DNA of 64,000 bases from the IMG/VR virus record IMGVR_UViG_3300047480_000504. One strand, given 5' to 3'. This stretch comes from a virus. Its lineage: Duplodnaviria > Heunggongvirae > Uroviricota > Caudoviricetes. The notes beneath the pieces were generated by a model. It had not been told where the DNA came from. It searched no databases and saw nothing but the letters and a program-made list of their open reading frames with translations. Position numbers and translations under genes: made by a program. This document shows, in pieces, positions 47,277-64,000 of the stretch. Every line of letters starts with the position of its first letter. Position 1 is the first letter of the stretch.

Positions 47277-48723
47277 AATTCATTTAAATCGAGTAAAGCA
47301 ACAATTGGACGCTGTCAGCAGTAGCTATTGCGTGGCCAAATGGCAGCAAGTAACTATTCATCTTGCAACGGGACAAACACATTCGTGTCACCACCCAGCA
47401 ACACATCATATTCCTGTAGAGGAAATTGCAGTAAATCCTAGTGCGCTACACAACACTAAATTCAAAAAACAACAACGTAAGAAGATGCTGGAAGGCGAAC
47501 GTCCTCCAGAATGTGACTACTGCTGGAAGGCAGAAGATAGTCCAGGACACCACTTCTCGGACCGTGTGCATAAAAGTGCTGACCCATTATGGGGACAACC
47601 ATTTTTAAAGCTGTCGTCACAAATGCCTTGGGACGCTGATGTTACCCCTGCTTATGTAGAAGTATCGTTTTCTAATGTATGTAACTTTGGTTGTGCATAT
47701 TGTTCGCCAGACATTAGTTCTACAATCATGCAAGAAGCCAAACGGTACGGTCCCGTTAAACTTGACGGTGGACGACTTGATCGTGACATTATCAAGCTAG
47801 AACAACAAGGCCGCATGCCAATTCCTAATAGGGAACACAATCCGTACATTGAAGCATTTTGGAAGTGGTGGCCTACGCTGTATCCCAAGCTAAAAGTATT
47901 CCGCATCACTGGTGGGGAACCCCTGCTGGCCAAGGACACATTTAAAGTACTTGACTGGATCATTGAGCATCCAAATCCAGAACTTGACCTGGCTATTAAC
48001 AGTAACTTGGGTGTAGATGAAAAGCTATTAAATGAGTTTTTAGAAAAAGCCAATTATATTCAAGAAAACAATTTGGTAAAGAGTTTAAAGATCTTTACAA
48101 GTTGCGACACCTGGGGCAAACAAGCTGAATATATTCGTACGGGCTTAAACTATAAACAATGGTATCGCACATTGTGGGACATTACACTACGCTATCCAGC
48201 ACTGAGTATTACAGTAATGGTCACATTCAACTTGTTAAGTATTCCACGCTTTGAATCATTCTTGCGTGATATGTTGGCATTACGTCAAGCGCCAAGTGTT
48301 AGCATCAACAACTCGGGCACCCGAGGAGTTGGATTGGACTTTCCGTACCTGCGCCATCCACGTTATCTAAGTTCGCTATTAGCAGATCCTTACATGCTAG
48401 TATTACTAGATCGCTCTATTCAGTTTATGCGTCACAATACTGCAACATATCAATACGTTGATTATCACGATGGCTTTTATCCACATGAAGTAGAAAACTT
48501 GCAACGTGTGTACAACATTGCATCAGCAGAGTGGCAAGGCAGTTTAGACAATCAGGTAAGTAGACGTGACTTTTATTTGTATATCGTTGAACACGATCGC
48601 CGTAATAACACCAACTTTAAAACAGTGTTTCCAGAAATTGGTTATTTCTACGATCAATGTAAGCGAGAATACGAAGAATCGCAGGCTGTACGAGAAGCAG
48701 TTGAAAATAAAGACAAAGAATAA
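47263..48723 (+). CDS. radical SAM enzyme
   Basis: CNFGCAYC (CxxxCxxC) within VSFSNVCNFGCAYCSPD. GTG start. Confidence 0.65.
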   Translation: MEPIKIHLNRVKQQLDAVSSSYCVAKWQQVTIHLATGQTHSCHHPATHHIPVEEIAVNPSALHNTKFKKQQRKKMLEGERPPECDYCWKAEDSPGHHFSDRVHKSADPLWGQPFLKLSSQMPWDADVTPAYVEVSFSNVCNFGCAYCSPDISSTIMQEAKRYGPVKLDGGRLDRDIIKLEQQGRMPIPNREHNPYIEAFWKWWPTLYPKLKVFRITGGEPLLAKDTFKVLDWIIEHPNPELDLAINSNLGVDEKLLNEFLEKANYIQENNLVKSLKIFTSCDTWGKQAEYIRTGLNYKQWYRTLWDITLRYPALSITVMVTFNLLSIPRFESFLRDMLALRQAPSVSINNSGTRGVGLDFPYLRHPRYLSSLLADPYMLVLLDRSIQFMRHNTATYQYVDYHDGFYPHEVENLQRVYNIASAEWQGSLDNQVSRRDFYLYIVEHDRRNNTNFKTVFPEIGYFYDQCKREYEESQAVREAVENKDKE

Positions 48724-53520: not shown

Positions 53521-54444
53521 TTAAAGGTCTTTAACTAAACGTTGAACAATTTCTTCGCAAGTGAGAATTTCATTTGCGTGTTCAATGCCTTTGCCAATGA
53601 ATACGTGCCCGCTTTCTGGATTTTGTATTCCTACCATTAGCCCACGTGTGTTATTTTGATTGTCTACTGGTGTATGACTAAAAATAATAGCGTTTTGGCT
53701 GTCGCTATCGGTTTTACCATTTTCTAAACGTTTAACATCACTGCCACTTGATGCAACTAGCTTGAGTTTTGTTTCTGTGGAAATTTTACTTTCAACAGAC
53801 ACTGCAAACATAGTACCAATGCCCACACCAAACGCACCGCGATCCATGTAGTATTTTAACTGCTCGCTTGTTCCTACTCCGCCTGATGTAATAACTCGGT
53901 GTGTTTTGTTTTTTGTTGTAAAACGTTCAAATAGCTGTTCTAATGTTTCACCAGTTAGATTACCACGACCAGCACCGTCAGGTCCTTTAAGGATAATACC
54001 GTCGGCCCCAACCAACGTATCTCCAGGTAGTAGAGTCTTGGTAAACACCATTGTTCCATTTTTCCTAAGTTGAGAAATTATTTTTGGCAAAGTGACCCTG
54101 CGTCTATTAACAGAATCTGGATGCTGATCTTCTAAAATGATTTCAACGGCTTTGACTTGATAAGTTAGCAATAATTCTAATAGGCCCGGCAGGTCTAATA
54201 GGTTGCCAACGTCAGTGCTTAGTAAAATAGAAGTATCACCTACAGCATTTTTATATCCGTCAATATCGCGTTTGAGTGCATCTACCCCAATGACGCCAAC
54301 TCCGGTAAAGTAATTAAAGATGCTTAGGCTTGGCAAGCAACCTGCTTTACGCACTGCTACTGCTAAATTTAAATCTGATACTTTGTTCATTGCCATACAA
54401 GCAATAGGATACTTGGTATTGAAAAATTCGGTAAATGTTTGCAT
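53521..54444 (-). CDS. nitronate monooxygenase / NPD-family FMN TIM-barrel oxidoreductase-like
   Basis: Start trimmed to MQTFTEF. YPIACMAMNKVSDLNLAVAVRKAGCLPSL (PIIQAPMAGVS...AGGLG-like) and ITSGGVGTSEQLKYYMDRGAFGVGIGTMF. Confidence 0.5.
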   Translation of the reverse strand: MQTFTEFFNTKYPIACMAMNKVSDLNLAVAVRKAGCLPSLSIFNYFTGVGVIGVDALKRDIDGYKNAVGDTSILLSTDVGNLLDLPGLLELLLTYQVKAVEIILEDQHPDSVNRRRVTLPKIISQLRKNGTMVFTKTLLPGDTLVGADGIILKGPDGAGRGNLTGETLEQLFERFTTKNKTHRVITSGGVGTSEQLKYYMDRGAFGVGIGTMFAVSVESKISTETKLKLVASSGSDVKRLENGKTDSDSQNAIIFSHTPVDNQNNTRGLMVGIQNPESGHVFIGKGIEHANEILTCEEIVQRLVKDL

Positions 54445-54494
54445 ACAGTACTTATTATGAAAACTCACAGGTGTATGTGCCAATAAATATCTAC

Positions 54495-55253
54495 ATGAAA
54501 ATAGTAATTGCAACCGGTGGTTTTGATCCTGTTCATTCAGGACACATAAAATATTTACAAGAGGCTCGCGAGTATGGCGACAAGTTAGTTGTTGGCCTAA
54601 ACTCTGATGCTTGGCTTGAACGCAAAAAGGGACGTCCATTTATGCCCTTTGCTGAACGACAAGCTGTACTAGAAGGATTACGCTGTGTTGATGAAGTTGT
54701 GGCGTTTGATGACAGCGACGGTAGTGCAGTTAAGCTATTAGAAAGTTTCCAATCAAGTTACTCATACGCTGAAATTATCTTTGTAAATGGTGGAGATCGT
54801 ACTGCGGCAAACATCCCCGAAATGTCAGTCAAGAACGTACTGTTTAAGTTTGGTGTAGGTGGCGACAACAAAGTCAATTCCAGTTCCTGGATCTTAGAAG
54901 AATGGCGAGCACCTAAAACAGAACGACCATGGGGTTACTATCGTGTACTACATGAAGTACCGGGAATGAAAGTTAAAGAGCTTACAGTCAATCCAGGCAA
55001 AAGTTTGAGTATGCAACGTCATCAACACCGTTCTGAATATTGGATTGTAAGCGAAGGTAGGGCTAATGTTAATAGTATGATGGCCGGAGGATACGCCTTA
55101 CCAAGTAGAGAACTGTCACGCCATGAGGAATACAAAGTCCCAGTTGGGGAATGGCACCAACTTACTAATCCTTATAGTGAGCCAGTTAGGATCATTGAGA
55201 TCCAGTACGGATCAAGTTGCGTAGAAGAAGATATTGAGCGTAAAGACACTTGA
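54495..55253 (+). CDS. cytidylyltransferase (nucleotidyltransferase) fused to a cupin domain
   Basis: MKIVIATGGFDPVHSGHIKYL has the (T/H)xGH nucleotidyltransferase signature. The C-terminus VNPGKSLSMQRHQHRSEYWIVSEGRANV is cupin-like. Confidence 0.6.
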   Translation: MKIVIATGGFDPVHSGHIKYLQEAREYGDKLVVGLNSDAWLERKKGRPFMPFAERQAVLEGLRCVDEVVAFDDSDGSAVKLLESFQSSYSYAEIIFVNGGDRTAANIPEMSVKNVLFKFGVGGDNKVNSSSWILEEWRAPKTERPWGYYRVLHEVPGMKVKELTVNPGKSLSMQRHQHRSEYWIVSEGRANVNSMMAGGYALPSRELSRHEEYKVPVGEWHQLTNPYSEPVRIIEIQYGSSCVEEDIERKDT

Positions 55254-55278
55254 CTTCCTGCTACAGCTCGTGTATACT
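55250..55278 (+). promoter_or_regulatory. sigma70-type promoter
   Basis: TTGACT at 55250-55255, a 17-nt spacer, and TATACT at 55273-55278. Confidence 0.55.
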
Positions 55279-55312: not shown

Positions 55313-55564
55313 ATGAGCTTTTCACCTGAACAAATTGCAAAACTGAAACGAGTGATCCAAGAGGGAGTCCAAGTCAAACGTGAGATTGATGACCTTAATG
55401 TGGGCCTTAAGGAAACTGTAGCGGCTATTGCTGAAGAAATGGAAATCAAAGCCGCAGTACTAAACAAAGCTATTACCAAAGCATTCAAGGGCGACTTTGA
55501 CAAGGACCAATCGGACCTGGAAGCTGTTGAGGAAATCCTTGACGTAACTGGTAACAAAGTATAA
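55313..55564 (+). CDS. hypothetical protein
   Basis: RBS CCGGAGATATACATG. Confidence 0.45.
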   Translation: MSFSPEQIAKLKRVIQEGVQVKREIDDLNVGLKETVAAIAEEMEIKAAVLNKAITKAFKGDFDKDQSDLEAVEEILDVTGNKV

Positions 55565-55854
55565 TGCTGAGCCTACTTTCAAGTGTAGGCAATTATATTC
55601 GAAATGACTGGCAAGAAAATCCAGTGCGCTGTGTGCTGGAAATTCTTGCTTGGTTCTTAAGCATTGGCTGTAGCTTCACTATGATGCTAACAGTTCCTAC
55701 ACCACCGTTCCTAATATTGTATCCGCTGTTTATTTTACAATGTGGTATCTTTGCTTGGGCGGCACGTACTCGTGGTAGCGTTGGTATGCTAGCCAACTAC
55801 CTACTACTAGTCACCATTGATACTATTGCATTGGTAAAAATGTGGATGCAGTAA
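55564..55854 (+). CDS. small membrane protein
   Basis: ATAATG overlap with the upstream gene. Three hydrophobic segments. Confidence 0.4.
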   Translation: MLSLLSSVGNYIRNDWQENPVRCVLEILAWFLSIGCSFTMMLTVPTPPFLILYPLFILQCGIFAWAARTRGSVGMLANYLLLVTIDTIALVKMWMQ

Positions 55855-56142
55855 ATGGAACAGCACGTTTCAGTTCATCATTGGCGCTATGAAGATGGTT
55901 GGCACAATGTGCCTGCTGTCTTACGTAAGAAAGGTGACGTTGCCCGAGAGTTTATTAAAGAAATCGTAGGATGGCATTGCTGGGTTTATTGCAACAACCA
56001 CTATGAATTCATTGAATGGATGATGGAACATTGTCCCCAAGCCGATTGTACTCCACGATTTAACTCCGGCGACCCAATGATCACTGTACATATTAAAGAC
56101 AAAGACGAGGCGGCATACTTTATGCTGAACTTTAATGTCTAA
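55855..56142 (+). CDS. WS-array family member (divergent C-terminus)
   Basis: FIEWMMEHC mid-motif, with C-terminal DKDEAAYFMLNFNV. Confidence 0.45.
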   Translation: MEQHVSVHHWRYEDGWHNVPAVLRKKGDVAREFIKEIVGWHCWVYCNNHYEFIEWMMEHCPQADCTPRFNSGDPMITVHIKDKDEAAYFMLNFNV

Positions 56143-56413
56143 GTGGTTAAACTATAACTTGTATCTTGGCGATGCAGTCGAAGAAGAAGTTTACGAGTGG
56201 CTAGCTGAAAACATCGCTCCTGTGCTAATGACAACTCAAGCCGAATACGATTACTTTAAAATGTATCACGGCGATCACGATTTGTGGATCATGCACTCAG
56301 CAGACGTAAGTGATGTAAGCAGTAGTTCTTGGGATACTATAACGCAAATTAGCTTTAAGAATAAAGAAGATGCGCTACTGGCCAAGCTACGATTTGGAGG
56401 CTCAATCCAATGA
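56135..56413 (+). CDS. WS-array family member (divergent)
   Basis: VYEWLAENIAPV mid-motif, with C-terminal NKEDALLAKLRFGG. Confidence 0.45.
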   Translation: MSKWLNYNLYLGDAVEEEVYEWLAENIAPVLMTTQAEYDYFKMYHGDHDLWIMHSADVSDVSSSSWDTITQISFKNKEDALLAKLRFGGSIQ

Positions 56414-56655
56414 GCTGGTTAGTACCAAAGTACACATTAAAAAAGGGATGGGGCCATACAGTCCGCCTGGTTGATCCTTATGCTGACTCAAATGAATTTG
56501 GTAGTATAGTCGATTACGAAGCAGTGGACCGTATCCTGGAATGGTCCACTGAAAACTCGTGCGGGACCAGAATTGGATACGACATGTGGAAATTTAGGTC
56601 GCAAGAAGAAGCAGAAGAGTTTATAATGGTGTTTACGTTAAGATACGGAAAGTAG
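56410..56655 (+). CDS. WS-array family member (divergent)
   Basis: ILEWSTENSCG mid-motif, with C-terminal SQEEAEEFIMVFTLRYGK. ATGA overlap. Confidence 0.45.
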   Translation: MSWLVPKYTLKKGWGHTVRLVDPYADSNEFGSIVDYEAVDRILEWSTENSCGTRIGYDMWKFRSQEEAEEFIMVFTLRYGK

Positions 56656-56656
56656 T

Positions 56657-56851
56657 ATGAGAGTTCTAAACAAACGCCATTGGCCCATCCAGTTTGATTT
56701 GCCCGTCAAGGACATGCACACAACTGATGATCGTATCATTTGGCTAAGGGAAAACTTTTCCAATGATGTGTGGCGTTTTAACGAACATAATTCTACATTT
56801 TGTTTTGCCAACAAAGATGATGCTGTAATGTTTAAGCTGGCCTGCTCATGA
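56657..56851 (+). CDS. WS-array family member
   Basis: IIWLRENFSND mid-motif, with C-terminal NKDDAVMFKLACS-stop. Confidence 0.5.
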   Translation: MRVLNKRHWPIQFDLPVKDMHTTDDRIIWLRENFSNDVWRFNEHNSTFCFANKDDAVMFKLACS

Positions 56852-57036
56852 CAACTTACGTGACATTGCCATTTAGGCCGTATCGAGAACCACTTGACTG
56901 GGCTAAAGAAAATTGCCCCAGTTATATCAGCAATGATGTACACATGGACGGATATAACAGCTACGACAATACTCGAATTGACTACTTCTTTGGCAACGAA
57001 GAAGATGCTATGTTGTTTAGGTTAGCGTGGTCATGA
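56848..57036 (+). CDS. WS-array family member
   Basis: LDWAKENCPSY mid-motif, with C-terminal NEEDAMLFRLAWS-stop. ATGA overlap. Confidence 0.5.
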   Translation: MTTYVTLPFRPYREPLDWAKENCPSYISNDVHMDGYNSYDNTRIDYFFGNEEDAMLFRLAWS

Positions 57037-57308
57037 GTTATAACGGCGCCGCAAAGTTTTTACCAGATAATTGGAGTCCTGTGGAATACACTATTATTAC
57101 AGATGGATGCGATTGCTATTCATGGCGTGAAGTTTATGCCTGGTGGCCAGTTAAAACCATCTACGGAGAACGTGTGTGGGGTGAACGAGTTTTTAAACGT
57201 AAGGTCTGGATAGCTTGGGGATCTATGTTTCATATGGAACCACATGTACAGTATGCAACTGCTTTTGATTTGATTACATATGACCCTAATAAATGCTATA
57301 ACATCTAA
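57033..57308 (+). CDS. small protein, second paralog family (WPVKTxxGERxWG)
   Basis: YAWWPVKTIYGERVWGERVFKR is shared with 61495..61707. ATGA overlap. Confidence 0.45.
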   Translation: MSYNGAAKFLPDNWSPVEYTIITDGCDCYSWREVYAWWPVKTIYGERVWGERVFKRKVWIAWGSMFHMEPHVQYATAFDLITYDPNKCYNI

Positions 57309-57714
57309 GTATCGTACTTGGCAAGAAAATCGTTTCTTAAAGAAGCATGGATGTGAGACTCGTGAGCAATATGATTATCGCTATGATCCAGACCGTGTGC
57401 CCTGTGCTACACAAATAAGAAACTATTACCAGGGCTATCAGCATGTACATTGTTTTGAGAACCGAGAAAACTTTGTTTACAAAACCATTTACGATTATGG
57501 CCCTGGTGGCTACAGAGACGGCTTTGATGAAATTTACGAATGGTGCGAAGAAAACTTGTTAGGCAAATGGCGCTATGATATGCTTCGTGTCATGAAGTGG
57601 CCAAGCACCGGTAATCAATGGGAAATAAACGAACTGGGTGGTGGAGACCATTGGTTCTTTGCTTTTCAAAACGACGAAGACTATTTTATTTTTAAACTGC
57701 AATGGGGTCAATGA
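57280..57714 (+). CDS. WS-array family member
   Basis: IYEWCEENLLGKWRYD mid-motif, with C-terminal QNDEDYFIFKLQWGQ-stop. Confidence 0.45.
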   Translation: MTLINAITSKYRTWQENRFLKKHGCETREQYDYRYDPDRVPCATQIRNYYQGYQHVHCFENRENFVYKTIYDYGPGGYRDGFDEIYEWCEENLLGKWRYDMLRVMKWPSTGNQWEINELGGGDHWFFAFQNDEDYFIFKLQWGQ

Positions 57715-58154
57715 TGAACACCACTTATTTTACAGATGAAGAACTGATCAACTACACCATCAAGTTCAGCAATGATCCTGAGAAGATTCGACTTGCAACT
57801 GCAATGGAACGTATTCGTGGTGCCATTTGGGATGACTTGGTAGATGTTGGCATCAACGAAACCTATTGCACGTTTACATCTGAATGGGGCTCTGAAATGC
57901 ATGTGGGTCGTTATATCTCTCACTTACGTGAAGAAATTGATATCCGCGACGAAGAATTACAACAACTACGAGACGAAGTTAAAGAGCTACGGGCACGTAC
58001 CATTATGGACTTTATCCAAGAGGTCAATCAAGAGCTCGAAACTGCCAAGTACCTTGTTAAAGAAGCAGAGGCAGCACGTGATCGAGAACATCAAGCCCGC
58101 CGCAAAGCCGAACGTGAACTTGAAATGTGGGACGTATTGACACACGGCAAGTGA
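57711..58154 (+). CDS. coiled-coil protein interrupting the array
   Basis: ATGA overlap. Charged, heptad-rich C-terminal half. No WS motif. Confidence 0.45.
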   Translation: MMNTTYFTDEELINYTIKFSNDPEKIRLATAMERIRGAIWDDLVDVGINETYCTFTSEWGSEMHVGRYISHLREEIDIRDEELQQLRDEVKELRARTIMDFIQEVNQELETAKYLVKEAEAARDREHQARRKAERELEMWDVLTHGK

Positions 58155-58411
58155 TGACACAGCGACATATCGTACAAGAGCCAGGTAGGCACCACGGTGC
58201 TCGCTATCACACACTGAAACCAGAAGGGTATACCCCTAACTGGGAAAATCAAACCTGGCTTGAAATGGTAGAGTGGTCAGTAGAGCAGTATGGGGTCGCC
58301 GGTGATGTATGGGGCGAACCAGGTGTTTGCCATCGTTGGTACGTGAATAACGCAAAGTTTTGGTTTCGTGATGAAGAAGATGCTGTAATGTTTATATTGA
58401 GGTGGTCATAA
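58154..58411 (+). CDS. WS-array family member
   Basis: TGATG overlap. EMVEWSVEQYG mid-motif, with C-terminal RDEEDAVMFILRWS-stop. Confidence 0.5.
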   Translation: MTQRHIVQEPGRHHGARYHTLKPEGYTPNWENQTWLEMVEWSVEQYGVAGDVWGEPGVCHRWYVNNAKFWFRDEEDAVMFILRWS

Positions 58412-58653
58412 TGAACGTGGAAAATTTAAGATCAATGGCATGGCGTTGGGGCATCGAAGTGGCACCTACTATAACATCTTGTCCGCCTGAAGCCAGATTC
58501 ATTACAGGTGATCAATCAACTGATGGGAAGCTTCACTACTTTGAACAAGACAGCGGGCTACAGTTGACCTTGTCGGCAGATTCTACAATGATTACAGATT
58601 ACCAGGTAGTTGACAAAGAAAAGTTTGTAATGTTTATATTGAGGTGGTCATGA
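58411..58653 (+). CDS. WS-array family member
   Basis: TAATG overlap. C-terminus KFVMFILRWS-stop. The last 25 nt are identical to the end of the upstream gene. Confidence 0.45.
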   Translation: MNVENLRSMAWRWGIEVAPTITSCPPEARFITGDQSTDGKLHYFEQDSGLQLTLSADSTMITDYQVVDKEKFVMFILRWS

Positions 58654-58961
58654 TAACAGATGAAATGAAACAACGTATTATGAATACCAATCTTTGCAAA
58701 GAGATCATAATGATGCCAAGCAAAATACGTGGTGCCTTGGGCACAGGTTTTACTATGCATTATGACGACTGGTTCTTTCCAGGGTATAATAAAACGTACT
58801 GGCCTTATCAGCACACTCCGTCAAGGTTGATTCCGGTCCGTGACCTAGAACGCTGGTGCTGGGATAATATCTCGCATGGCTGCTACTGGCGAAACTATCA
58901 AACGCACTTTGCATTCAAACGCAAAGAAGATGCAGCCTTGTTTATGTTGACCTGGTCATGA
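58650..58961 (+). CDS. WS-array family member
   Basis: ATGA overlap. LERWCWDNISHG mid-motif, with C-terminal KRKEDAALFMLTWS-stop. Confidence 0.5.
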   Translation: MITDEMKQRIMNTNLCKEIIMMPSKIRGALGTGFTMHYDDWFFPGYNKTYWPYQHTPSRLIPVRDLERWCWDNISHGCYWRNYQTHFAFKRKEDAALFMLTWS

Positions 58962-59158
58962 AATATTATAACAAGAAAAAGATTGAAAGAAGTCTATGGA
59001 CTCGCGTCACAGTATCTTCTAATGACTACAACAAAGAAAGATTTTTATGGTGCCAGCGTCAAGAAAGTACTGGAAGGTTTTACAGATACTACGGAAACTT
59101 CAGCTGGTGGTTTGAACATAAAGAAGATGCCGCACTTTTTATATTGACTTGGTCATGA
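58958..59158 (+). CDS. WS-array family member
   Basis: ATGA overlap. C-terminus EHKEDAALFILTWS-stop. Confidence 0.5.
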   Translation: MKYYNKKKIERSLWTRVTVSSNDYNKERFLWCQRQESTGRFYRYYGNFSWWFEHKEDAALFILTWS

Positions 59159-59418
59159 AAGATAATATTCACGAATTCATTGATGCGTGGAAAGTGTACG
59201 ATCACCAGCACAAAGGTGATGTTGACTGGAATAGTCGTTTTCGATGTGGCGGCTATTATTCTGCCAACGTTAGTAGAGACAGCATAATGCACAAATGGAA
59301 TCAAATGCACAAGTGGTGCGAAGAACACATTGGCCAGCAAAGGTATGCCTGGACAGGTTCGACCTTTTGGTTTGAAACCAAAGATGACATGGCATTTTTT
59401 ATATTGACCTGGTCATGA
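59155..59418 (+). CDS. WS-array family member
   Basis: ATGA overlap. MHKWCEEHIGQQRYAW mid-motif, with C-terminal ETKDDMAFFILTWS-stop. Confidence 0.5.
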   Translation: MKDNIHEFIDAWKVYDHQHKGDVDWNSRFRCGGYYSANVSRDSIMHKWNQMHKWCEEHIGQQRYAWTGSTFWFETKDDMAFFILTWS

Positions 59419-59669
59419 CAGTAACTTATACTACAAACGATGCATGGCCGGGAGTAAAGTTTCCAGTGTTGCACAAAGTCACGTATGCTAAAACTGTAGA
59501 TAATATGCAAGCACAGTATCAACGAAGTTATAAAGATTGCTTAGTAGATGAATGGCTCAAGACAAACTGTCGTAGCCCCTACTACCGCAGTCCAGGATAT
59601 CTCACTGAAAAGTTTATACAATTTGAATGCAATGAGGAGGCAGCGTTGTTTGCGCTGACATGGGCATGA
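59415..59669 (+). CDS. WS-array family member
   Basis: ATGA overlap. C-terminus CNEEAALFALTWA-stop. Confidence 0.5.
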   Translation: MTVTYTTNDAWPGVKFPVLHKVTYAKTVDNMQAQYQRSYKDCLVDEWLKTNCRSPYYRSPGYLTEKFIQFECNEEAALFALTWA

Positions 59670-60046
59670 AGACAGACGATGTTATTAGAATGATTGAAGA
59701 GATGAAAGCTGGATTAGCAAAGCACCAGCCTGTACTGGCCGCGCCCGACATGCACGGACACTGTACAGTGGATGCAGGCGTATTCTACGCACCTCGCTTT
59801 CCAAAAACTCTTGCGGCTCTTGGCAGGCTACCTGTGAACAAACATAAATTCAGCCGTGCCAAATGGTATGTGGCAGAGTATGATTGGGTCCATTACGGAG
59901 AAGTCCTGGCATGGTGTAAGGAACAGTTTGGACCACATCCTGCTCGACCTGATGCATGGTCGCGTTGGTGGGACAGGTACGAAGGCAAGATATTCTTACG
60001 TGATCCAGAAGATTACATTATGTTCAAGCTACGGTGGGGCGAATGA
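59666..60046 (+). CDS. WS-array family member
   Basis: ATGA overlap. VLAWCKEQFGPH mid-motif, with C-terminal RDPEDYIMFKLRWGE-stop. Confidence 0.5.
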   Translation: MKTDDVIRMIEEMKAGLAKHQPVLAAPDMHGHCTVDAGVFYAPRFPKTLAALGRLPVNKHKFSRAKWYVAEYDWVHYGEVLAWCKEQFGPHPARPDAWSRWWDRYEGKIFLRDPEDYIMFKLRWGE

Positions 60047-60399
60047 GCAAGTTAGAAATAAGAAAGCTGTTCACACTACCCAATGGTATTCATTTTCCTT
60101 GTGGACTAAACTTTAGAGAAAAACTTTGGTGGAGATTCATGCCCGGGGTGATCATCAATGTGCGGTGGCCCAAGGGTTGGGTGACTCTATATGAAGACTC
60201 TGACGGATCAAAAGTGTCTGCCGAATCAGCAGATCCAAACGACCATTACAGGCCCTGGATGGAAGCCAATGTGGGTAGACAAAAATGGGACTGGGACTGG
60301 GGCATGGCGGACCGAGACGCAACGGACAACCGTCTTACAATAAAGATTAGGCAAAAGCACCAAGACTGTGCTATAATTGCAAAACTAATGTGGAGCTGA
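60043..60399 (+). CDS. WS-array family member (divergent)
   Basis: ATGA overlap. C-terminus HQDCAIIAKLMWS-stop. Confidence 0.45.
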   Translation: MSKLEIRKLFTLPNGIHFPCGLNFREKLWWRFMPGVIINVRWPKGWVTLYEDSDGSKVSAESADPNDHYRPWMEANVGRQKWDWDWGMADRDATDNRLTIKIRQKHQDCAIIAKLMWS

Positions 60400-60401
60400 C
60401 T

Positions 60402-60767
60402 ATGAATGAAACACTGATCCTGATTACCTTGCTTTTTACCAAGCATTTTGTAGTAGATTTTCCACTACAAAAACCATACCAGTATCTAAACAAAGGCACT
60501 TATGGGCACCCAGGAGGCATCCTACATTCGGGCCTGCATGGTATTTTTACTGCACTTTGCTTTTGGTGGTGGGCACCTATGGCATGTTTGGCATTAGGCG
60601 TGATTGACATGGTTATACATTATCACATTGATTGGGCCAAGATGAACATCAACAAAAAGTACGGTTGGGGTGCAAACACACACGAAGAATTTTGGTGGTT
60701 GTTGGGCTTGGATCAATTCCTGCACGCCTTAACCTACGTTGCTCTTGTGGCCTTGGTGACAGTATGA
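60402..60767 (+). CDS. small multi-TM membrane protein (DUF3307-like)
   Basis: Three or four hydrophobic helices with an HYHIDW motif. Confidence 0.4.
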   Translation: MNETLILITLLFTKHFVVDFPLQKPYQYLNKGTYGHPGGILHSGLHGIFTALCFWWWAPMACLALGVIDMVIHYHIDWAKMNINKKYGWGANTHEEFWWLLGLDQFLHALTYVALVALVTV

Positions 60768-61096
60768 TGCCCGCAGTTGATTTTTTTAAAACTGGTGGCT
60801 TCCGTCCCGGCGAAGTTATTGTTTATGCAGGCGGCTTTGGTGTAGGCAAGAGCAAGTATTACGCCATGGCTGATTCAGCAAAACCTGTAGCAGAAGTCAT
60901 TGACCAAGCCACTGTTGATGGAGCAACATGGTACACTGTTAGTTGCCGCAAGGATGTATCCGTATGGGTACGCGAACACGGGATTGAAAACAAAGAGTGG
61001 TACGAGCATATCGACGGTAAGTGGATGGTGCATAAAAACGTGTTTGACATGCACGAAGAACTGTACGCATATCTTAAACTATCATGGGGTGAATAA
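60764..61096 (+). CDS. WS-array family member (divergent)
   Basis: ATGA overlap. C-terminus HEELYAYLKLSWGE-stop. Confidence 0.45.
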   Translation: MMPAVDFFKTGGFRPGEVIVYAGGFGVGKSKYYAMADSAKPVAEVIDQATVDGATWYTVSCRKDVSVWVREHGIENKEWYEHIDGKWMVHKNVFDMHEELYAYLKLSWGE

Positions 61097-61263
61097 TGAC
61101 CTGGCGAGCAATGAACTGCAACGAAAACTGTAAAAAAGAGTACTCGGAAGAGTACGATGCATACTACTGCGAAACTTGCAATGCATGGTTAGAAGATACC
61201 TGCGATGATGCCAACTGTGAGTATTGCACAAAGCGACCAGAATACCCTGTCACACATGGCTGA
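61096..61263 (+). CDS. small Cys-rich zinc-ribbon-like protein (55 aa)
   Basis: TAATG overlap. Cysteine pattern CNENC ... CETC ... CDDANC ... EYC. Confidence 0.3.
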   Translation: MTWRAMNCNENCKKEYSEEYDAYYCETCNAWLEDTCDDANCEYCTKRPEYPVTHG

Positions 61264-61492
61264 AGTTAAAATATTTGCAGAAAACGCCAAAGGACAGAAG
61301 CTAGTAGGCGATAGCCGCTATGTTATGACCGATCAAGAGCTGTACGACGATATTGTCACATGGTGCCATGAGAACAACATTAAGGCCAGGACCGTAAACA
61401 CCGAAGCATGGAGTCAAATGATTTTTAAGTCTCTGCTATGGCGTATCGACAACATTAATGATCGCGCATTGTTTGCATTAAGGTGGTCATAA
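61256..61492 (+). CDS. WS-array family member
   Basis: Overlaps the upstream stop (ATGGCTGA). IVTWCHENNIKART mid-motif, with C-terminal NDRALFALRWS-stop. Confidence 0.5.
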   Translation: MAEVKIFAENAKGQKLVGDSRYVMTDQELYDDIVTWCHENNIKARTVNTEAWSQMIFKSLLWRIDNINDRALFALRWS

Positions 61493-61494
61493 AG

Positions 61495-61707
61495 ATGAAT
61501 ATAGGACCACATGATACATTTATCGCCAGGAAGATAGAAATAAGTCCTTGGCGGCTTTGGTTTGCATGGTACCCTGTTAAAACCACTAACGGTGAACGAG
61601 CATGGGGTAGAAAAATATATCGACGTTGCATCAACACTTATGTTGATTACGATGATTGGCGGCATTATGAATACGCAGATATGTTTGACGTATTAGGTGA
61701 TGAGTAA
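61495..61707 (+). CDS. small protein, second paralog family (WPVKTxxGERxWG)
   Basis: FAWYPVKTTNGERAWGRKIYRR. Confidence 0.45.
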   Translation: MNIGPHDTFIARKIEISPWRLWFAWYPVKTTNGERAWGRKIYRRCINTYVDYDDWRHYEYADMFDVLGDE

Positions 61708-61952
61708 TGGAATATTTTTGGAGCGACGGTGGCAACAACGACCCTTACTTTAGTCATAGGATTAAGGTACCAAAGTGTACAGCAGACATGTATGACTGGT
61801 GTGCCGAGTTTGACGATGAGGGCAAATACTTTCGCCGTTGGCATGTTCAATGGCAAGCAAATCGTCCCCAACGAGATTATGACGTTGTGCAATTTGAATG
61901 GCGGGAAGCCGCAAATATGTTTTTGCTAACCTGGGGCGGACAATACCTATGA
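61707..61952 (+). CDS. WS-array family member
   Basis: TAATG overlap. MYDWCAEFDDEGKYFRRW mid-motif, with C-terminal WREAANMFLLTWGGQYL-stop. Confidence 0.5.
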   Translation: MEYFWSDGGNNDPYFSHRIKVPKCTADMYDWCAEFDDEGKYFRRWHVQWQANRPQRDYDVVQFEWREAANMFLLTWGGQYL

Positions 61953-62278
61953 ACAAAACTGCAATGCAAGTAATGCAAGATGCCCATGAGGCAAGGTTAA
62001 AGCATCACGATGCAAAAATAAAGAGATTGGAAGAAAAGTATGCCGAAGAGGCTGCAAAGATCTTACAAGAAGAAATTGACTGGGAACTTATCGCTGACAT
62101 GATGGTTGCAGTTGGTTGGACAAAGGTCGAACTTCCAAAGTTCTTTGCTTCTGGCATTACACTTGATATGAACAATTGGCTACACAATGAATGCAAGCAT
62201 CATTGGAAGCATCGTGCTAATACATGGGTCTTTGAAAACAAAAACGAAGCGGCCCTTTTTAAACTAACTTGGAGTTGA
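61949..62278 (+). CDS. WS-array family member
   Basis: ATGA overlap. WLHNECKHHWKHRANTW mid-motif, with C-terminal ENKNEAALFKLTWS-stop. Confidence 0.5.
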   Translation: MNKTAMQVMQDAHEARLKHHDAKIKRLEEKYAEEAAKILQEEIDWELIADMMVAVGWTKVELPKFFASGITLDMNNWLHNECKHHWKHRANTWVFENKNEAALFKLTWS

Positions 62279-62279
62279 T

Positions 62280-62501
62280 ATGTACGACGAATTTACCTGG
62301 GACAATGCCAAAGACGATCCTATGTGCGTTGAGATTAAACATCATGGGCGTACTGTAATGAGATTTGCCATTGGCGAAGCAATGGAAGGCGCCGGACGTA
62401 AGCGTGTGATGGCTCATGTACGAGAATGTGATCACTCACCGTGGCTCAAAGAATGGCACCAACAGGCTCAAGACGAAATGCTTGACAATCTCAAACAATA
62501 G
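62280..62501 (+). CDS. hypothetical protein
   Basis: Starts 2 nt after the last WS gene. Contains the promoter for the next gene in its 3' end. Confidence 0.4.
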   Translation: MYDEFTWDNAKDDPMCVEIKHHGRTVMRFAIGEAMEGAGRKRVMAHVRECDHSPWLKEWHQQAQDEMLDNLKQ

Positions 62502-62510
62502 TGCTATACT
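62482..62510 (+). promoter_or_regulatory. sigma70-type promoter
   Basis: TTGACA at 62482-62487, a 17-nt spacer, and TATACT at 62505-62510. Confidence 0.55.
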
Positions 62511-62515
62511 GATAT

Positions 62516-62911
62516 ATGACTGAAGAAATCAAAAAACAAGAAGTAATGGATGCATTACATGAGTCGGGCAGACAATTTGCCAAGTTAGCCGACGACTGGC
62601 AACAAATGGCAAACTCATATTACTCAAGCCTTGAACCAGAAGAACAACTATGGGCCTTTTGTGCAGTAGTTGAAAAGTTATGCAAAGGCGAACTCGACGA
62701 GAATCGTAGCTACAGGGGCATCTTATACGATACATTTGGTTGGGGTCCGGAAGCGTATGCAGTTGCACAACATGCTGGCTTTTTAGGGCTACACAATTCC
62801 ATCTACCGTTTTGAAGACCTTGAGCATGTGTTGGCCAATACCCTAAAAGAACTTGAAATTGAAGTAGAACCGGACAAGTTGTCCCAAGCCTTGGCAAGAC
62901 ACTTCTATTAA
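62516..62911 (+). CDS. hypothetical protein
   Basis: ORF directly upstream of the DNA polymerase gene. Not RegA-like. Confidence 0.45.
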   Translation: MTEEIKKQEVMDALHESGRQFAKLADDWQQMANSYYSSLEPEEQLWAFCAVVEKLCKGELDENRSYRGILYDTFGWGPEAYAVAQHAGFLGLHNSIYRFEDLEHVLANTLKELEIEVEPDKLSQALARHFY

Positions 62912-62928
62912 AGAGAAATACATAATAC

Positions 62929-64000
62929 ATGTTTATTGACGCACTACATGACAAAAAGAAAGAAATCATCCACGTTGTAGAACGTGTAGATGGTAAGAGG
63001 GTACTCAAACAGTATCCTGCCAAGTACATATTTTACTACCCAGACAGCAAGGGCAAGTTTACTAACATTGCCGGCGATCGTGTTAGCAGAGTTATCCTTG
63101 GCAATGCCGCGGCATTTGATAAAGAACGCAGAATCTATAGCAACAGAAAACTATGCGAAAGCGATTACAAGCCGCTTAACCGTTGCTTAGAAGAAGTGTA
63201 TGGCGGCCAGGATGCGCCTAACCTTCACGTTGCCTTTTTCGACATTGAGGTATCTTACGACAAGGTAAAGGGCTTTGCTCCACCTGAAGATCCATTCAAC
63301 TACATTACAGCCATCACTACATACTTGACATGGATGGATGTTAATATTACTCTATGTCTAAAGCCCGACAGCATGAGTATTGAAGTTGCTAAAGAAATTT
63401 GTGCCAAGTTTGACAACACCATCTTATGCAACAGCGAAAAGGAAATGCTCGACATGTGGCTCGAGCTAATTGAAGACGCTGACGTACTAAGTGGTTGGAA
63501 CTCAGAAGGCTTCGATATTCCGTACACTACTAACCGCATTACTCGTGTGTTAGGCAAAGACCAAACTCGACGCATTTGCTTGTGGGATCAATATCCCAAA
63601 CGCCGCGAGTATGAAAAGTATGGCAAGACATTAGAAACATATGACCCTATCGGGCGTGTTCACCTTGACTATCTTGAATTGTATCGCAAGTACAACTATC
63701 ACGAACTGCCAAGCTATCGACTGGACTACGTAGGTGAAATTGAACTTGGAGAGAACAAGATCCACTACGAAGGTACGTTGGATCAACTATACAATAACGA
63801 CTTTGAAAAGTTTATTGCTTACAACAGACAAGACGTTGTATTGCTTAAGAAACTAGACGACAAGTTAAAGTTTATTGAACTTACCAATCTGATTAGTCAT
63901 GCAAACACTGTCACGCTTCGTGGCACGTTAGGTGCAGTTGCCGTGACTGATCAAGCCGTTATCAACGAAGCCCACCGCCTTAACATGGTGGTACCAGATC
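62929..64000 (+). CDS. 43: T4 gp43-type family-B DNA polymerase (N-terminal exonuclease part, 3' truncated at window end)
   Basis: The frame is open from the ATG at 62929 to the window end. LHVAFFDIEVSYDK (Exo I DxE), GWNSEGFDIPYTTNRITRVLG (Exo II) and YNRQDVVLLKKLD (Exo II Y...D) are colinear with the T4 gp43 N-terminus. It is absent from the ORF track because no stop lies within the window. Confidence 0.75.
   Translation, partial: MFIDALHDKKKEIIHVVERVDGKRVLKQYPAKYIFYYPDSKGKFTNIAGDRVSRVILGNAAAFDKERRIYSNRKLCESDYKPLNRCLEEVYGGQDAPNLHVAFFDIEVSYDKVKGFAPPEDPFNYITAITTYLTWMDVNITLCLKPDSMSIEVAKEICAKFDNTILCNSEKEMLDMWLELIEDADVLSGWNSEGFDIPYTTNRITRVLGKDQTRRICLWDQYPKRREYEKYGKTLETYDPIGRVHLDYLELYRKYNYHELPSYRLDYVGEIELGENKIHYEGTLDQLYNNDFEKFIAYNRQDVVLLKKLDDKLKFIELTNLISHANTVTLRGTLGAVAVTDQAVINEAHRLNMVVPD

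What the first reader, a model, noticed from the sequence alone, without database searches (positions are those of the whole stretch)
55855..62278. Tandem, translationally coupled array of about 18 paralogous small genes ending in ...EDAxxFxLxWS-stop
Seen in sequence: over 6.4 kb, 18 of 23 consecutive small ORFs (60-145 aa) share a bipartite signature.
- A mid-protein W-[CLS]-x-E-[NEQ] motif, for example IYEWCEENL, VLAWCKEQF, MHKWCEEHI and IVTWCHENN.
- A C-terminal F-x-F-x(2)-[KR]-[ED]-D-A-x-x-F-x-L-x-W-S terminus. Examples: KEDAALFILTWS (58958-59158), EEDAMLFRLAWS (56848-57036), DEEDAVMFILRWS (58154-58411) and NKNEAALFKLTWS (61949-62278).
- In almost every case the TGG-TCA-TGA (W-S-stop) end overlaps the next ATG (TCATGA). 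This gives an unbroken chain of coupled genes behind a single consensus promoter at 55250-55278.
- The array is interrupted by a second small paralog pair with WPVKTxxGERxWG (57033-57308 and 61495-61707), a coiled-coil protein, a DUF3307-like membrane protein and a Cys-rich mini-protein.

The motif matches no family I can name.

Inference: a rapidly diversifying, gene-duplication-driven family. T4-like hyperplastic regions are known hotspots for host-takeover and anti-defence genes. The conserved termini could be an interaction handle (for a common host target) carried on variable specificity cores.
Basis: seen in the sequence. Interest (0 to 1): 0.82.

Follow-up and report, generated by a model that had tools for sequence, protein, structure and literature searches.

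The report
Phage array of small paralogous genes
An uncultured giant bacteriophage carries, just upstream of its DNA polymerase gene, a chain of 18 overlapping small genes from one large protein family that no database has named; what the proteins do is unknown.

Summary
Between 55855 and 62278, 18 of 23 consecutive + strand genes share one C-terminal domain. A profile built almost entirely from distant metagenomic relatives recovers 17 of them and nothing else in the 64 kb.

The window comes from an uncultured jumbo phage. A 332 kb relative exists, and its polymerase is 47% identical to that of Agrobacterium phage Atu_ph07. The array lies between a DsbA-like gene and family-B DNA polymerase.

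AlphaFold gives a compact beta-alpha-beta-beta-alpha fold (pLDDT 95 and 82).

The family has at least 1,732 clusters at 50% identity in metagenomes. It has no Pfam, PHROGs, NCBIfam, PADLOC or PDB match and no tblastn match at E<=1e-3 in 50,697 GenBank phages. It forms multi-copy arrays in four unrelated phage contigs.

Orthologs are under purifying selection (dN/dS 0.03-0.3). Paralogs are old (15-40% identity). Arrays differ between relatives by whole-cassette gain, loss and reordering. One indel aligned at base level breaks exactly at the shared TGGTCATGA stop/start junction.

Function is inferred only: probably early, co-translated binding proteins aimed at host or defence targets.

The parts
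55250..55278 (+). Sigma-70-like promoter candidate (TTGACT-17-TATACT) in the 59-nt gap ahead of the chain
   Evidence: The pattern TTGAC-N18-TATA[AC]T occurs 12 times in the window against 1.6 expected, 11 of them on the + strand. An exact match sits at the same position in relatives L001, L005, L010, L011, L012 and L013. Activity was not tested.
55313..55564 (+). First gene of the chain: DsbA-like small DNA-binding or transcription regulator. Conserved flank, not a family member.
   Evidence: phrog_12534 E 7.5e-21, phrog_639 'transcriptional regulator' E 1.4e-9, Pfam Phage_DsbA weak. 46% identical to the 'DNA binding protein' that lies two genes upstream of PolB in Sinorhizobium phage Phosso. 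91-100% identical in relatives.
55564..55854 (+). 96-aa hydrophobic protein. Conserved flank, not a family member.
   Evidence: No family hit.
55855..56142 (+). Family member 1 (95 aa; ...KDKDEAAYFMLNFNV)
   Evidence: Independent HMM E 1.9e-7. Orthologs in all relatives, 70-84% identical.
56135..56413 (+). Family member 2 (92 aa)
   Evidence: E 2.2e-9.
56410..56655 (+). Family member 3 (81 aa; divergent tail ...EEAEEFIMVFTLRYGK)
   Evidence: E 8.4e-4. Motifs visible by eye.
56657..56851 (+). Family member 4 (64 aa)
   Evidence: E 9.5e-17.
56848..57036 (+). Family member 5 (62 aa)
   Evidence: E 3.3e-11.
57033..57308 (+). WPVKT-motif protein, copy 1. A different small family.
   Evidence: BLASTP E 1e-11 to copy 2. 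A relative lies in the unrelated array L022.
57280..57714 (+). Family member 6 (144 aa, long N-terminal extension)
   Evidence: E 4.1e-8. Orthologs P0018 and others.
57702..58154 (+). 150-aa acidic coiled-coil protein. Not a family member.
   Evidence: Only weak coiled-coil Pfam hits. Present only in L012, L007 and L001.
58154..58411 (+). Family member 7 (85 aa)
   Evidence: E 1.8e-15.
58411..58653 (+). Family member 8 (80 aa). Weak: the tail is conserved and the body is divergent.
   Evidence: E 7.9e-3. Its last 26 nt are 92% identical to the end of the preceding gene. An ortholog occurs only in L012.
58650..58961 (+). Family member 9 (103 aa). Absent from closest relative L012.
   Evidence: E 6.8e-15. 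Part of the 505-nt two-cassette indel.
58958..59158 (+). Family member 10 (66 aa, minimal domain). Unique to this window among 15 loci.
   Evidence: AlphaFold pLDDT 82, beta-alpha-beta-beta-alpha. Part of the indel.
59155..59418 (+). Family member 11 (87 aa)
   Evidence: E 2e-17.
59415..59669 (+). Family member 12 (84 aa). The most widely conserved subfamily.
   Evidence: 107 database clusters at 90% identity. Present in all 14 related loci. AlphaFold pLDDT 95.3, pTM 0.81.
59660..60046 (+). Family member 13 (128 aa, 'KFSRAKWY' subfamily)
   Evidence: E 1.3e-15. 34% identical over its full length to P0220.
60043..60399 (+). Family member 14 (118 aa, divergent)
   Evidence: E 2.8e-6.
60402..60767 (+). 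DUF3307 membrane protein. Not a family member.
   Evidence: PF11750 E 1.4e-8, 35.2 bits against a cut-off of 23. phrog_2470 E 4e-19.
60764..61096 (+). Family member 15 (110 aa). Probable member.
   Evidence: Found only by the clade-iterated HMM (E 1.8e-12). Missed by the independent HMM. Motifs visible by eye.
61096..61263 (+). 55-aa protein with 7 Cys, zinc-ribbon-like. Not a family member.
61205..61492 (+). Family member 16 (95 aa). The start is ambiguous: 61205 or 61256.
   Evidence: E 5.2e-11. Ortholog P0100.
61495..61707 (+). WPVKT-motif protein, copy 2
61707..61952 (+). Family member 17 (81 aa)
   Evidence: E 1.7e-7.
61949..62278 (+). Family member 18 (109 aa, N-terminal helical extension)
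   Evidence: E 7.3e-13.
62280..62501 (+). 73-aa conserved flank gene. Last gene of the chain.
62482..62510 (+). Second promoter candidate (TTGACA-17-TATACT with TG). Marks the start of the next unit.
   Evidence: 11 of 12 consensus positions. Exact match at the same position in L005, L006, L008, L011, L012 and L013.
62516..62911 (+). 131-aa conserved flank gene
   Evidence: 75-88% identical in all relatives but L007 (51%).
62929..64000 (+). N-terminal part of family-B DNA polymerase. Runs off the window.
   Evidence: 93% identical over 357 aa to PolB of the 332 kb relative. That PolB carries DNA_pol_B_exo1 and DNA_pol_B domains.

Best explanation
SHOWN.
- The locus is an expansion of one previously unnamed small-protein domain. 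The domain is about 50 residues with beta-alpha-beta-beta-alpha topology and always lies at the C-terminus.
- It belongs to an uncultured jumbo phage of the T4 superfamily.
- Eighteen members plus five unrelated small genes fill the gap between a conserved DsbA-like gene and the DNA polymerase gene.
- The genes are tiled with overlapping stop and start codons.
- Conserved promoter-like sites lie only in front of the chain and after it.
- Relatives carry the same array with different sets and orders of cassettes.
- At least one cassette indel has its breakpoints exactly on the shared TGGTCATGA junction.

INFERRED (expression). The chain is read as one early or middle polycistronic message. Translation passes from gene to gene by termination and re-initiation.

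INFERRED (protein). The conserved residues build the hydrophobic core and helix caps of a sturdy scaffold. The surfaces and N-terminal extensions differ between paralogs. Each paralog is therefore most likely a small binding protein with its own partner.

INFERRED (evolution). The conserved 3' coding ends and junctions double as recombination joints. Whole genes can then be swapped in frame between co-infecting phages.

INFERRED (function, least certain). The partners are host or host-defence proteins. The array would then be a toolbox for host takeover or counter-defence.
For: - Family reality and limits.
- Coding and under selection: dN/dS 0.03-0.3 for nearly all genes against up to seven relatives. 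HMM hits fall only on the + strand.
- Fold: pLDDT 95.3 and pTM 0.81 for the 84-aa member; pLDDT 82 for the 66-aa minimal member.
- Variable surfaces: pI 4.4-9.6 and net charge -9 to +5.
- Protein-level rather than DNA-level constraint: the invariant Leu is encoded by four different codons. No tandem DNA repeat. No Rfam match.
- Position: the DsbA-like gene and PolB are separated by one gene in phage Phosso but by about 25 here.
- Operon-like layout: 20 of 26 junctions overlap. Terminator-like and promoter-like sites inside the region are at chance level. The bracketing promoter motif is conserved in relatives.
- Cassette turnover: identity matrix and cassette-order map of 10 loci, with about 30 distinct family clusters.
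- Mosaicism: dS against the closest relative L012 ranges from 0.03 to 1.6 from gene to gene.
- Junction breakpoints: identity to L012 is 98-99% up to ...TTGAGG. A 505-nt stretch holding two cassettes follows in the window only, and alignment resumes at TGGTCATGA at about 85% identity. In L011 a different pair of cassettes is joined at the same junction sequence.
- Generality: 1,732 cluster representatives at E<=1e-3. Arrays of 6-16 members occur in four unrelated phage contigs. In 104 of 149 representatives exactly one residue follows the conserved Trp.
- Phage-only distribution of the best-conserved subfamily: no relative in 185,579 bacterial and archaeal species genomes.
Against: - No experiment or expression data exist for any member.
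- No similarity to any known anti-defence, takeover or defence protein.
- Orthologs evolve under purifying selection, not the positive selection expected in an arms race.
- About nine members are kept in nearly all relatives. That would also fit a housekeeping role in the phage's own replication or gene expression.
- The promoter and coupling model rests on consensus matches and gene spacing only.
- The window has an extra internal promoter-like site at 59404-59432.
- The junction-recombination claim rests on one base-level alignment, one further junction sequence and gene-order maps. It is not a population-level analysis.
Confidence: 0.5

Rival explanations
1. Constant-module ('handle') model. 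The conserved C-terminal domain is the working part. It docks all paralogs onto one common partner, such as a host hub protein or a phage replication or transcription factor. The variable N-terminal parts bring different activities or locations to that partner.
For: - The same domain is found behind very different N-terminal parts: membrane helices (P0175, P0260), a coiled coil (61949-62278), extra beta strands (59415-59669), a capsid-protein fragment (P0220) and a second copy of itself (P0121, P0127 and others).
- Trp, Leu and Phe positions are invariant or nearly so across 135 distant members.
- The array lies next to the replication genes.
Against: - The minimal members (62-66 aa) are little more than the domain itself, so nothing would remain to act as cargo.
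- The conserved positions are mostly aromatic or aliphatic or sit at helix ends, as expected for a folding core.
- Surface charge varies widely.
Confidence: 0.2
2. Nucleic-acid-binding regulators. The domain is a stripped-down KH-like module. The paralogs would bind RNA or single-stranded DNA to tune phage or host translation, RNA decay or replication.
Against: - There is one helix where KH has two joined by the GXXG loop, and no GXXG motif is present.
- Twelve of the 18 members have net negative charge, with pI down to 4.4.
Confidence: 0.12
3. Immunity-type proteins. Like the tandem arrays of immunity genes in polymorphic-toxin loci, each paralog would neutralise one toxin. The toxins could be host abortive-infection effectors or toxins of competing phages (superinfection exclusion).
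For: Small alpha+beta proteins in tandem arrays of divergent paralogs with presence/absence variation are typical of immunity gene arrays (general knowledge, not tested here). The variation itself is shown.
Against: - No hit to any Pfam immunity family at E<=1 for ten members, or at E<=0.01 for 135 distant members.
- No toxin-like gene lies in or beside any of the arrays examined.
- No copy of the best-conserved subfamily was found in bacterial genomes.
Confidence: 0.08
4. The repeats are a DNA- or RNA-level element, or the ORFs are chance products. The apparent protein motif would then be a by-product.
For: Gene 3' ends form direct DNA repeat families of 26-55 nt, mostly at 60-85% identity.
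Against: - dN/dS is far below 1 in almost every gene.
- Synonymous codons vary at invariant residues.
- AlphaFold models are confident.
- Thousands of protein-level relatives exist with unrelated DNA.
- No Rfam hit and no tandem DNA repeat.
Confidence: 0.01

Closest known systems
Hyperplastic regions of T4-type phages shuffled through PeSL cassettes (Arbiol et al. 2010, PMC2839356; Comeau et al. 2014, PMC4122927)
   Same: A plastic block of small, mostly unknown, non-core genes lies between conserved core genes of a T4-superfamily phage. Close relatives differ by insertion, deletion and replacement of whole genes. Recombination takes place at short repeated sequences that flank the genes.
   Different: In PeSL regions the repeated joints are non-coding promoter-plus-terminator cassettes and the genes are unrelated ORFans (PMC2839356 abstract). 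Here there is no intergenic space. The joint is the conserved coding 3' end plus the overlapping stop/start (TGGTCATGA), and most genes belong to one family.
Lineage-specific expansions of small domains in jumbo phages, such as the ~35 zinc-ribbon copies in Bacillus phage G (Iyer et al. 2021, PMC7824862)
   Same: Many paralogs of one small domain occur in a single jumbo phage genome, with function guessed only from context. Atu_ph07, the cultured relative by polymerase, belongs to that paper's group 2.2.
   Different: The domain is different and unnamed. The copies are contiguous and translationally coupled. The same expansion recurs in several unrelated phage lineages. The paper does not mention this family in the passages searched.
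Type I KH domains and the related secretin N-domain fold
   Different: No GXXG loop. One helix where KH has two. 4-9% identity. The scores are equalled by unrelated small alpha/beta folds. No evidence of common descent.
T4 internal proteins IPI-IPIII (from my own knowledge, not tested here)
   Same: A set of small, variable phage proteins share a short conserved part and sit in a plastic locus. At least IPI acts against a host restriction system.
   Different: There the conserved part is a roughly 10-residue N-terminal capsid-targeting peptide that is cleaved off. Here it is a folded C-terminal domain of about 50 residues.
Single distant members in cultured phages Atu_ph07 (AUZ95037.1) and Phosso (XYS97406.1, XYS97803.1)
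   Same: Same domain by HMM: E 3e-6 to 9e-13 in locus-sized searches. For Atu_ph07, Foldseek independently lists a 102-aa Atu_ph07 protein, probably the same one (A0A2L0UZT1, probability 0.80).
   Different: The members are scattered and annotated 'hypothetical'. There are two to four per 40-80 kb scanned, not a dense coupled array.

Membership tests
The family itself (unnamed; C-terminal W-x-x-E-N ... F-x-F-x-x-E-D-A-x-x-F-x-L-x-W-x domain) | Significant match to a profile built from distant members | tested here: met
   17 of 18 window members score E<0.01 with the HMM of alignment A4, which holds 134 metagenomic sequences and one window sequence. There are no hits outside 55855-62278.
The family itself (unnamed) | The domain lies at the extreme C-terminus, with the stop one to three codons after the conserved Trp | tested here: met
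   In 104 of 149 representatives exactly one residue follows the Trp. Eleven window members end one residue after that position (W-S, W-A or C-S), three end W-G-E or W-G-Q and four have other tails.
Any Pfam-A, PHROGs, NCBIfam or PADLOC family | Profile match at or near the curated threshold | tested here: not met
   No family hit for window members or for 135 distant members. The only exception is a Gp23 match in the N-terminal part of two of them.
KH domain, type I | beta-alpha-alpha-beta-beta-alpha topology with a GXXG loop between the first two helices | tested here: not met
   The models show beta-alpha-beta-beta-alpha with a single helix. No GXXG is conserved in the alignment.
PeSL-type mobile regulatory cassettes of T4-type hyperplastic regions | A strong sigma-70-like promoter plus a terminator stem-loop between the shuffled genes | tested here: not met
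   Junctions overlap or leave at most 14 nt. Promoter-like and terminator-like sites in the region are at shuffle level: 26 against 23, and 11 against 7.6.
Hyperplastic region in the broad sense (plastic block between conserved core genes) | Conserved flanks with variable gene content among close relatives | tested here: met
   The flanks are 91-100% (DsbA-like) and 93% (PolB) identical. The interior differs by whole genes.
Lineage-specific expansion of a domain in a jumbo phage | Many paralogs of one domain in one genome of more than 200 kb | tested here: met
   18 paralogs lie in 6.4 kb. The relative's contig is 332 kb. The window's own genome size is not known.
Polymorphic-toxin immunity gene arrays | A neighbouring toxin gene and a match to an immunity family | tested here: not met
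   No such Pfam hit. No toxin domain among the neighbours.
Known anti-defence proteins | Homology to a characterised inhibitor, or an experimental phenotype | not testable with these tools
   No dedicated anti-defence library was available. Pfam (2025 copy) gave no hit.
DUF3307 (gene 60402-60767 only) | Pfam PF11750 above the gathering score | tested here: met
   35.2 bits against a cut-off of 23, E 1.4e-8.

The most novel reading that the evidence does not exclude
The array is a recombinase-free gene-cassette system. A conserved folded C-terminal module ends in a fixed Trp-x-stop/ATG junction. That junction serves both as translational coupler and as an in-frame recombination joint. Large uncultured phages could then trade and stack members of one huge scaffold family. 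Each member would disarm a different host immune or housekeeping protein, making the array a phage counter-defence island built from a single fold.
Probability: 0.2. Interest if true: 0.8.

Novelty: new variant of a known kind. Interest (0 to 1): 0.55.

Why it matters
The finding defines a large phage protein family of at least 1,732 clusters at 50% identity. The family is missing from Pfam, PHROGs, NCBIfam and the PDB and gave no tblastn match at E<=1e-3 in deposited phage genomes, yet it has a confidently predicted fold. It could be added to annotation resources at once.

The family repeatedly expands into coupled arrays in the early-looking regions of big uncultured phages. That makes it a well-defined candidate pool for host-manipulating or counter-defence proteins. 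The members are short enough (60-145 aa) to synthesise and screen.

The exact junction breakpoints show a simple way for phages to shuffle whole genes without disturbing reading frames or translational coupling. This differs from the promoter/terminator cassettes described for T4-type phages.

Tried and rejected
Searches that found nothing.
- DNA megablast of the locus against GenBank phages: no match.
- tblastn of two members against phages: no match.
- tblastn of the family consensus: only phage Phosso, at E 0.02.
- tblastn of 40 concatenated diverse members: no match at E<=1e-3. Concatenation lowers sensitivity.
- PDB by sequence profile: nothing.
- Foldseek against viral structures: no hit at E<=0.001, only weak small phage proteins including two from Atu_ph07.
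- tRNA scan, Rfam and tandem-repeat finder: nothing relevant.
- Scan of 185,579 species genomes with the 84-aa subfamily: 47 pattern matches, none confirmed.
- Literature searches for the assembly accession and for tandem small-protein families in jumbo phages: nothing on this family.

Calls that could not run.
- The AFDB fold library was not available.
- The search for related loci with the broad alignments failed for lack of conserved stretches.

Ideas considered and dropped.
- KH-domain membership: no GXXG loop.
- A DNA-level repeat element: codon variation and dN/dS argue against it.
- Recent tandem duplication: paralogs are 15-40% identical and no DNA repeats exist.
- A capsid-protein-like N-terminus in window gene 59660-60046. 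Its relative P0220 has one, but the window protein's N-terminus is not significantly similar to gp23 (z -0.5) and only marginally similar to P0220's N-terminus (z 3.4, 19 of 2,000 shuffles).
- P0129 (589 aa, 10 matched stretches): an ankyrin-like repeat protein that matches only the first helix, so a false positive.

Full report
1. WHAT IS IN THE SEQUENCE

The + strand from 55313 to 62911 carries 27 small genes in an almost unbroken chain. Twenty of the 26 junctions overlap: ten are ATGA-type, five are -1 overlaps (TAATG or TGATG) and five are longer. The widest gap is 14 nt.

Within 55855-62278 there are 23 genes. All quoted peptides and coordinates are correct. Six start codons needed small corrections.

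The five interspersed genes are also as described:
- A WPVKT pair, BLASTP E 1e-11.
- A coiled-coil protein.
- A DUF3307 membrane protein, 35.2 bits against a cut-off of 23.
- A 55-aa protein with 7 Cys.

2. IS IT MORE THAN CHANCE?

- An HMM of 12 core members hits only ORFs of this interval among the 1,097 six-frame ORFs of the window, at E 1e-13 to 1e-23.
- An HMM made from 134 distant metagenomic proteins plus one window sequence recovers 17 of the 18 at E<0.01 and nothing elsewhere.
- The 18th member (60764-61096) appears only after iteration on clade relatives, so it is probable rather than certain.
- The genes are real. dN/dS against orthologs in up to seven related contigs is 0.03-0.3 for almost all genes. 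HMM hits are never on the minus strand.
- Conservation is at the protein level. The invariant Leu uses four different codons. There is no DNA tandem repeat and no Rfam match.

3. WHERE THE WINDOW COMES FROM

No GenBank phage matches at the DNA level.

A protein search found that the 84-aa member (59415-59669) has 107 database clusters at 90% identity. One lies on a 332 kb NCBI contig (GCA_902729845.1) whose locus is syntenic with the window. The shared order is:
- UDP-glucose dehydrogenase.
- NMO-family oxidoreductase.
- A sugar nucleotidyltransferase/isomerase.
- The DsbA-like gene.
- The array.
- Family-B DNA polymerase.

The window's last 357 codons are 93% identical to that polymerase. The polymerase is 47% identical to those of Sinorhizobium phage Phosso and Agrobacterium phage Atu_ph07, and about 43% identical to those of the CBB-like and other large enterobacterial jumbo phages listed (350-385 kb genomes). 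Iyer et al. place Atu_ph07 in the gp23-type group 2.2 of jumbo phages (PMC7824862).

In Phosso the DsbA-like gene (46% identical) is separated from the polymerase by a single small gene. The array is therefore an expansion in a gap between conserved core genes.

4. THE PROTEIN

AlphaFold2 with a 134-sequence alignment models the 84-aa member at pLDDT 95.3 and pTM 0.81. The model has three N-terminal strands, a helix (39-51), two strands and a helix (73-83).

The 66-aa minimal member, modelled with 134 distant relatives, gives strand-helix-strand-strand-helix at pLDDT 82.

The W-x-x-E-N motif is the first helix. F-x-F is the last strand. E-D-A-x-x-F-x-L-x-W is the last helix. The conserved positions are aromatic or aliphatic, or lie at helix ends. 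This is the pattern of a folding core.

pI ranges from 4.4 to 9.6.

PDB sequence profiles, Pfam, PHROGs, NCBIfam and PADLOC give no hit.

5. HOW BIG THE FAMILY IS

An exhaustive profile search of 1.84 billion cluster representatives returns 1,732 proteins at E<=1e-3.
- The 150 best are 43-181 aa, apart from one 589-aa false positive (P0129), and the domain is almost always at the C-terminal end.
- In 104 of 149 exactly one residue follows the conserved Trp.
- That last residue is Ser, Gly, Ala, Leu, Thr or Val. All of these can end in A and so form the ATGA overlap.
- A few proteins are two-domain fusions.

Four hits from unrelated contigs were looked up, and all four sit in multi-copy strings:

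| Contig | Size | GC | Members found |
|---|---|---|---|
| L017 | 128 kb | 34% | 16 in 20 kb scanned |
| L020 | 57 kb | 37% | 9 in 20 kb scanned |
| L022 | 2.5 kb | 39% | 6 |
| L023 | 211 kb (T4-like) | 36% | 11 in 20 kb scanned |

Cultured phages barely have the family.
- Consensus tblastn finds only Phosso at E 0.02.
- Forty concatenated members find nothing at E<=1e-3.
- HMM scans find four scattered members in 82 kb of Phosso and two in 43 kb of Atu_ph07.
- Foldseek independently lists a 102-aa Atu_ph07 protein, probably one of those two.
- The 84-aa subfamily has no relative in 185,579 bacterial and archaeal species genomes.

6. HOW THE ARRAY EVOLVES

Fourteen related loci all carry the array on the same strand between the same flanks, with 6-18 members in the loci that span most of the array.

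A cassette-order map of ten loci shows constant flanks (A, B ... Z, AA) and about 30 distinct family clusters inside. There are whole-gene presence/absence differences and some reordering.
- Nine or so members are nearly universal.
- 58958-59158 is unique to this window among these loci. It has 59-70% identical relatives elsewhere.
- Paralogs are 15-40% identical. The expansion is therefore old, not a fresh duplication.
- Against the closest relative L012, dS jumps from 0.03 to 1.6 between neighbouring genes. This indicates mosaic recombination.

A base-level alignment with L012 shows the breakpoints.
- Identity is 98-99% up to ...TTTATATTGAGG.
- A 505-nt stretch follows that is present only in the window. 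It holds exactly two cassettes.
- Alignment resumes at TGGTCATGA, at about 85% identity.
- Both breakpoints, and the shift in divergence, therefore sit on the shared Trp-Ser-stop/Met junction.

In L011 a different pair of cassettes is joined at the same sequence. Across eight loci 78 of 110 family gene ends overlap the next start.

The nearest described mechanism is PeSL-mediated modular shuffling in T4-type hyperplastic regions (PMC2839356). There the joints are intergenic promoter-terminator cassettes, which are absent here.

7. EXPRESSION (INFERRED)

The pattern TTGAC-N18-TATA[AC]T occurs 12 times in the window against 1.6 expected, 11 of them on the + strand.

One copy lies in the gap before the DsbA-like gene (55250-55278). 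One lies before the 131-aa gene that precedes the polymerase (62482-62510). Exact matches sit at these two positions in several relatives, and none lies inside their arrays.

The window has one extra internal match (59404-59432). It is formed by the Leu-Thr codons of one gene and the Thr-Tyr-Thr codons of the next, and L012 does not conserve it.

Together with the overlaps, this fits one polycistronic, translationally coupled unit. Nothing has been measured.

8. FUNCTION (INFERRED, LEAST CERTAIN)

The features that point to small binding proteins with different partners are:
- A sturdy small scaffold with variable surfaces and N-terminal additions.
- An early-looking operon next to the replication genes.
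- A phage-only distribution.
- Recurrent expansion.
- Cassette exchange.

Host or defence proteins are the most likely targets. I give this about 0.5.

Points against it: there is no similarity to any known inhibitor, orthologs are under purifying selection, and a conserved core set of members could serve the phage's own processes.

The rivals are:
- A constant docking module carrying variable N-terminal parts (0.2).
- KH-like nucleic-acid binding (0.12).
- Immunity-type proteins (0.08).
- A non-coding artefact (0.01, refuted).

9. VERDICT

This is a new, large, unnamed family forming coupled cassette arrays. It is a new variant of the known theme of plastic regions and lineage-specific expansions in large phages. 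It is of moderate interest until a function is shown.

Noticed in passing
P0220 (130 aa) and P0259; L023:6618-7052 and L024:6739-7052: Some family members in other phages carry an N-terminal fragment homologous to the gp23-type major capsid protein. The evidence is P0220 residues 14-63 against Pfam Gp23 positions 4-53 (E 6.6e-10), tblastn hits to capsid genes in 1,700 phage records, and an alignment to residues 74-140 of phage JSE gp23 (z 14.9). Separate 42-52 aa ORFs with the same match lie in a T4-like contig. From memory, this capsid region overlaps the Gol peptide sensed by the Lit defence protease, so a decoy role is conceivable. Window gene 59660-60046 is of the same subfamily, but its N-terminus is not significantly capsid-like.
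   Followed up: partly
window 57033-57308 and 61495-61707; L022:730-1053: The WPVKT / W-x-W-[YR]-P-V motif proteins form a second small family that travels with the arrays. A relative sits inside an unrelated array on contig L022 (jackhmmer E 4e-26). PHROGs gives only weak hits to families of unknown function.
   Followed up: partly
window, 12 sites (e.g. 12879, 22623, 55250, 62482): A sigma-70-like pattern TTGAC-N18-TATA[AC]T is about sevenfold enriched (12 against 1.6 expected), and 11 of 12 copies are on the + strand. This suggests the phage uses host-type promoters across this 64 kb, where nearly all long ORFs are on the + strand.
   Followed up: partly
window 59404-59432: An exact match to that promoter pattern is created by coding sequence. 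The Leu-Thr codons (TTGACC) of one family gene give the -35 box, and the Thr-Tyr-Thr codons (ACTTATACT) of the next give the -10 box. The closest relative has CTGACC instead. Probably chance.
   Followed up: partly
window 58411-58653: This weak member has a divergent body and no clear W-x-x-E-N helix. Its last 26 nt are 92% identical to the end of the preceding gene, and it occurs only in the closest relative. It may be a chimera made by junction recombination.
   Followed up: partly
window 36592-38643: A 683-aa phage-encoded protein carries a CHASE2 sensor domain (E 3.7e-42) and an adenylate/guanylate cyclase domain (E 3.2e-19). This is a membrane-sensor nucleotide cyclase in a phage genome.
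   Followed up: no
window 2376-3896, 32674-34683, 47263-48723, 48726-51071, 53521-54639 (-), 54435-55253: Other notable genes are a subtilase, an amidoligase-domain protein and a weak radical-SAM match. Just upstream of the array lie a 781-aa UDP-glucose dehydrogenase fusion, an NMO-family oxidoreductase on the opposite strand and a cytidylyltransferase/mannose-6-phosphate isomerase fusion. Together they look like a sugar or nucleotide-sugar modification cluster.
   Followed up: no
L001:6524-7318: In the 332 kb relative a 264-aa MOSC-domain gene is inserted inside the array, between family members. The window has no such gene.
   Followed up: no
P0121, P0127, P0128, P0148, P0223, P0237: These are two-domain proteins made of two family domains in tandem. 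In some the second unit still begins with Met a few residues after the first unit's Trp, as expected if the stop codon of an overlapping junction was lost.
   Followed up: no
window 61096-61263 / 61205-61492: The Cys-rich gene and the next family gene overlap by 59 nt if the upstream ATG is used. An alternative start at 61256 would give an 8-nt overlap. The N-terminal extension is conserved in ortholog P0100, so the true start is unresolved.
   Followed up: no
P0129 (589 aa): An ankyrin-like repeat protein with ten 'KWLHENRSEGC' repeats matched the first-helix part of the profile. It is a false positive and a caution for anyone building a short profile of this family.
   Followed up: yes
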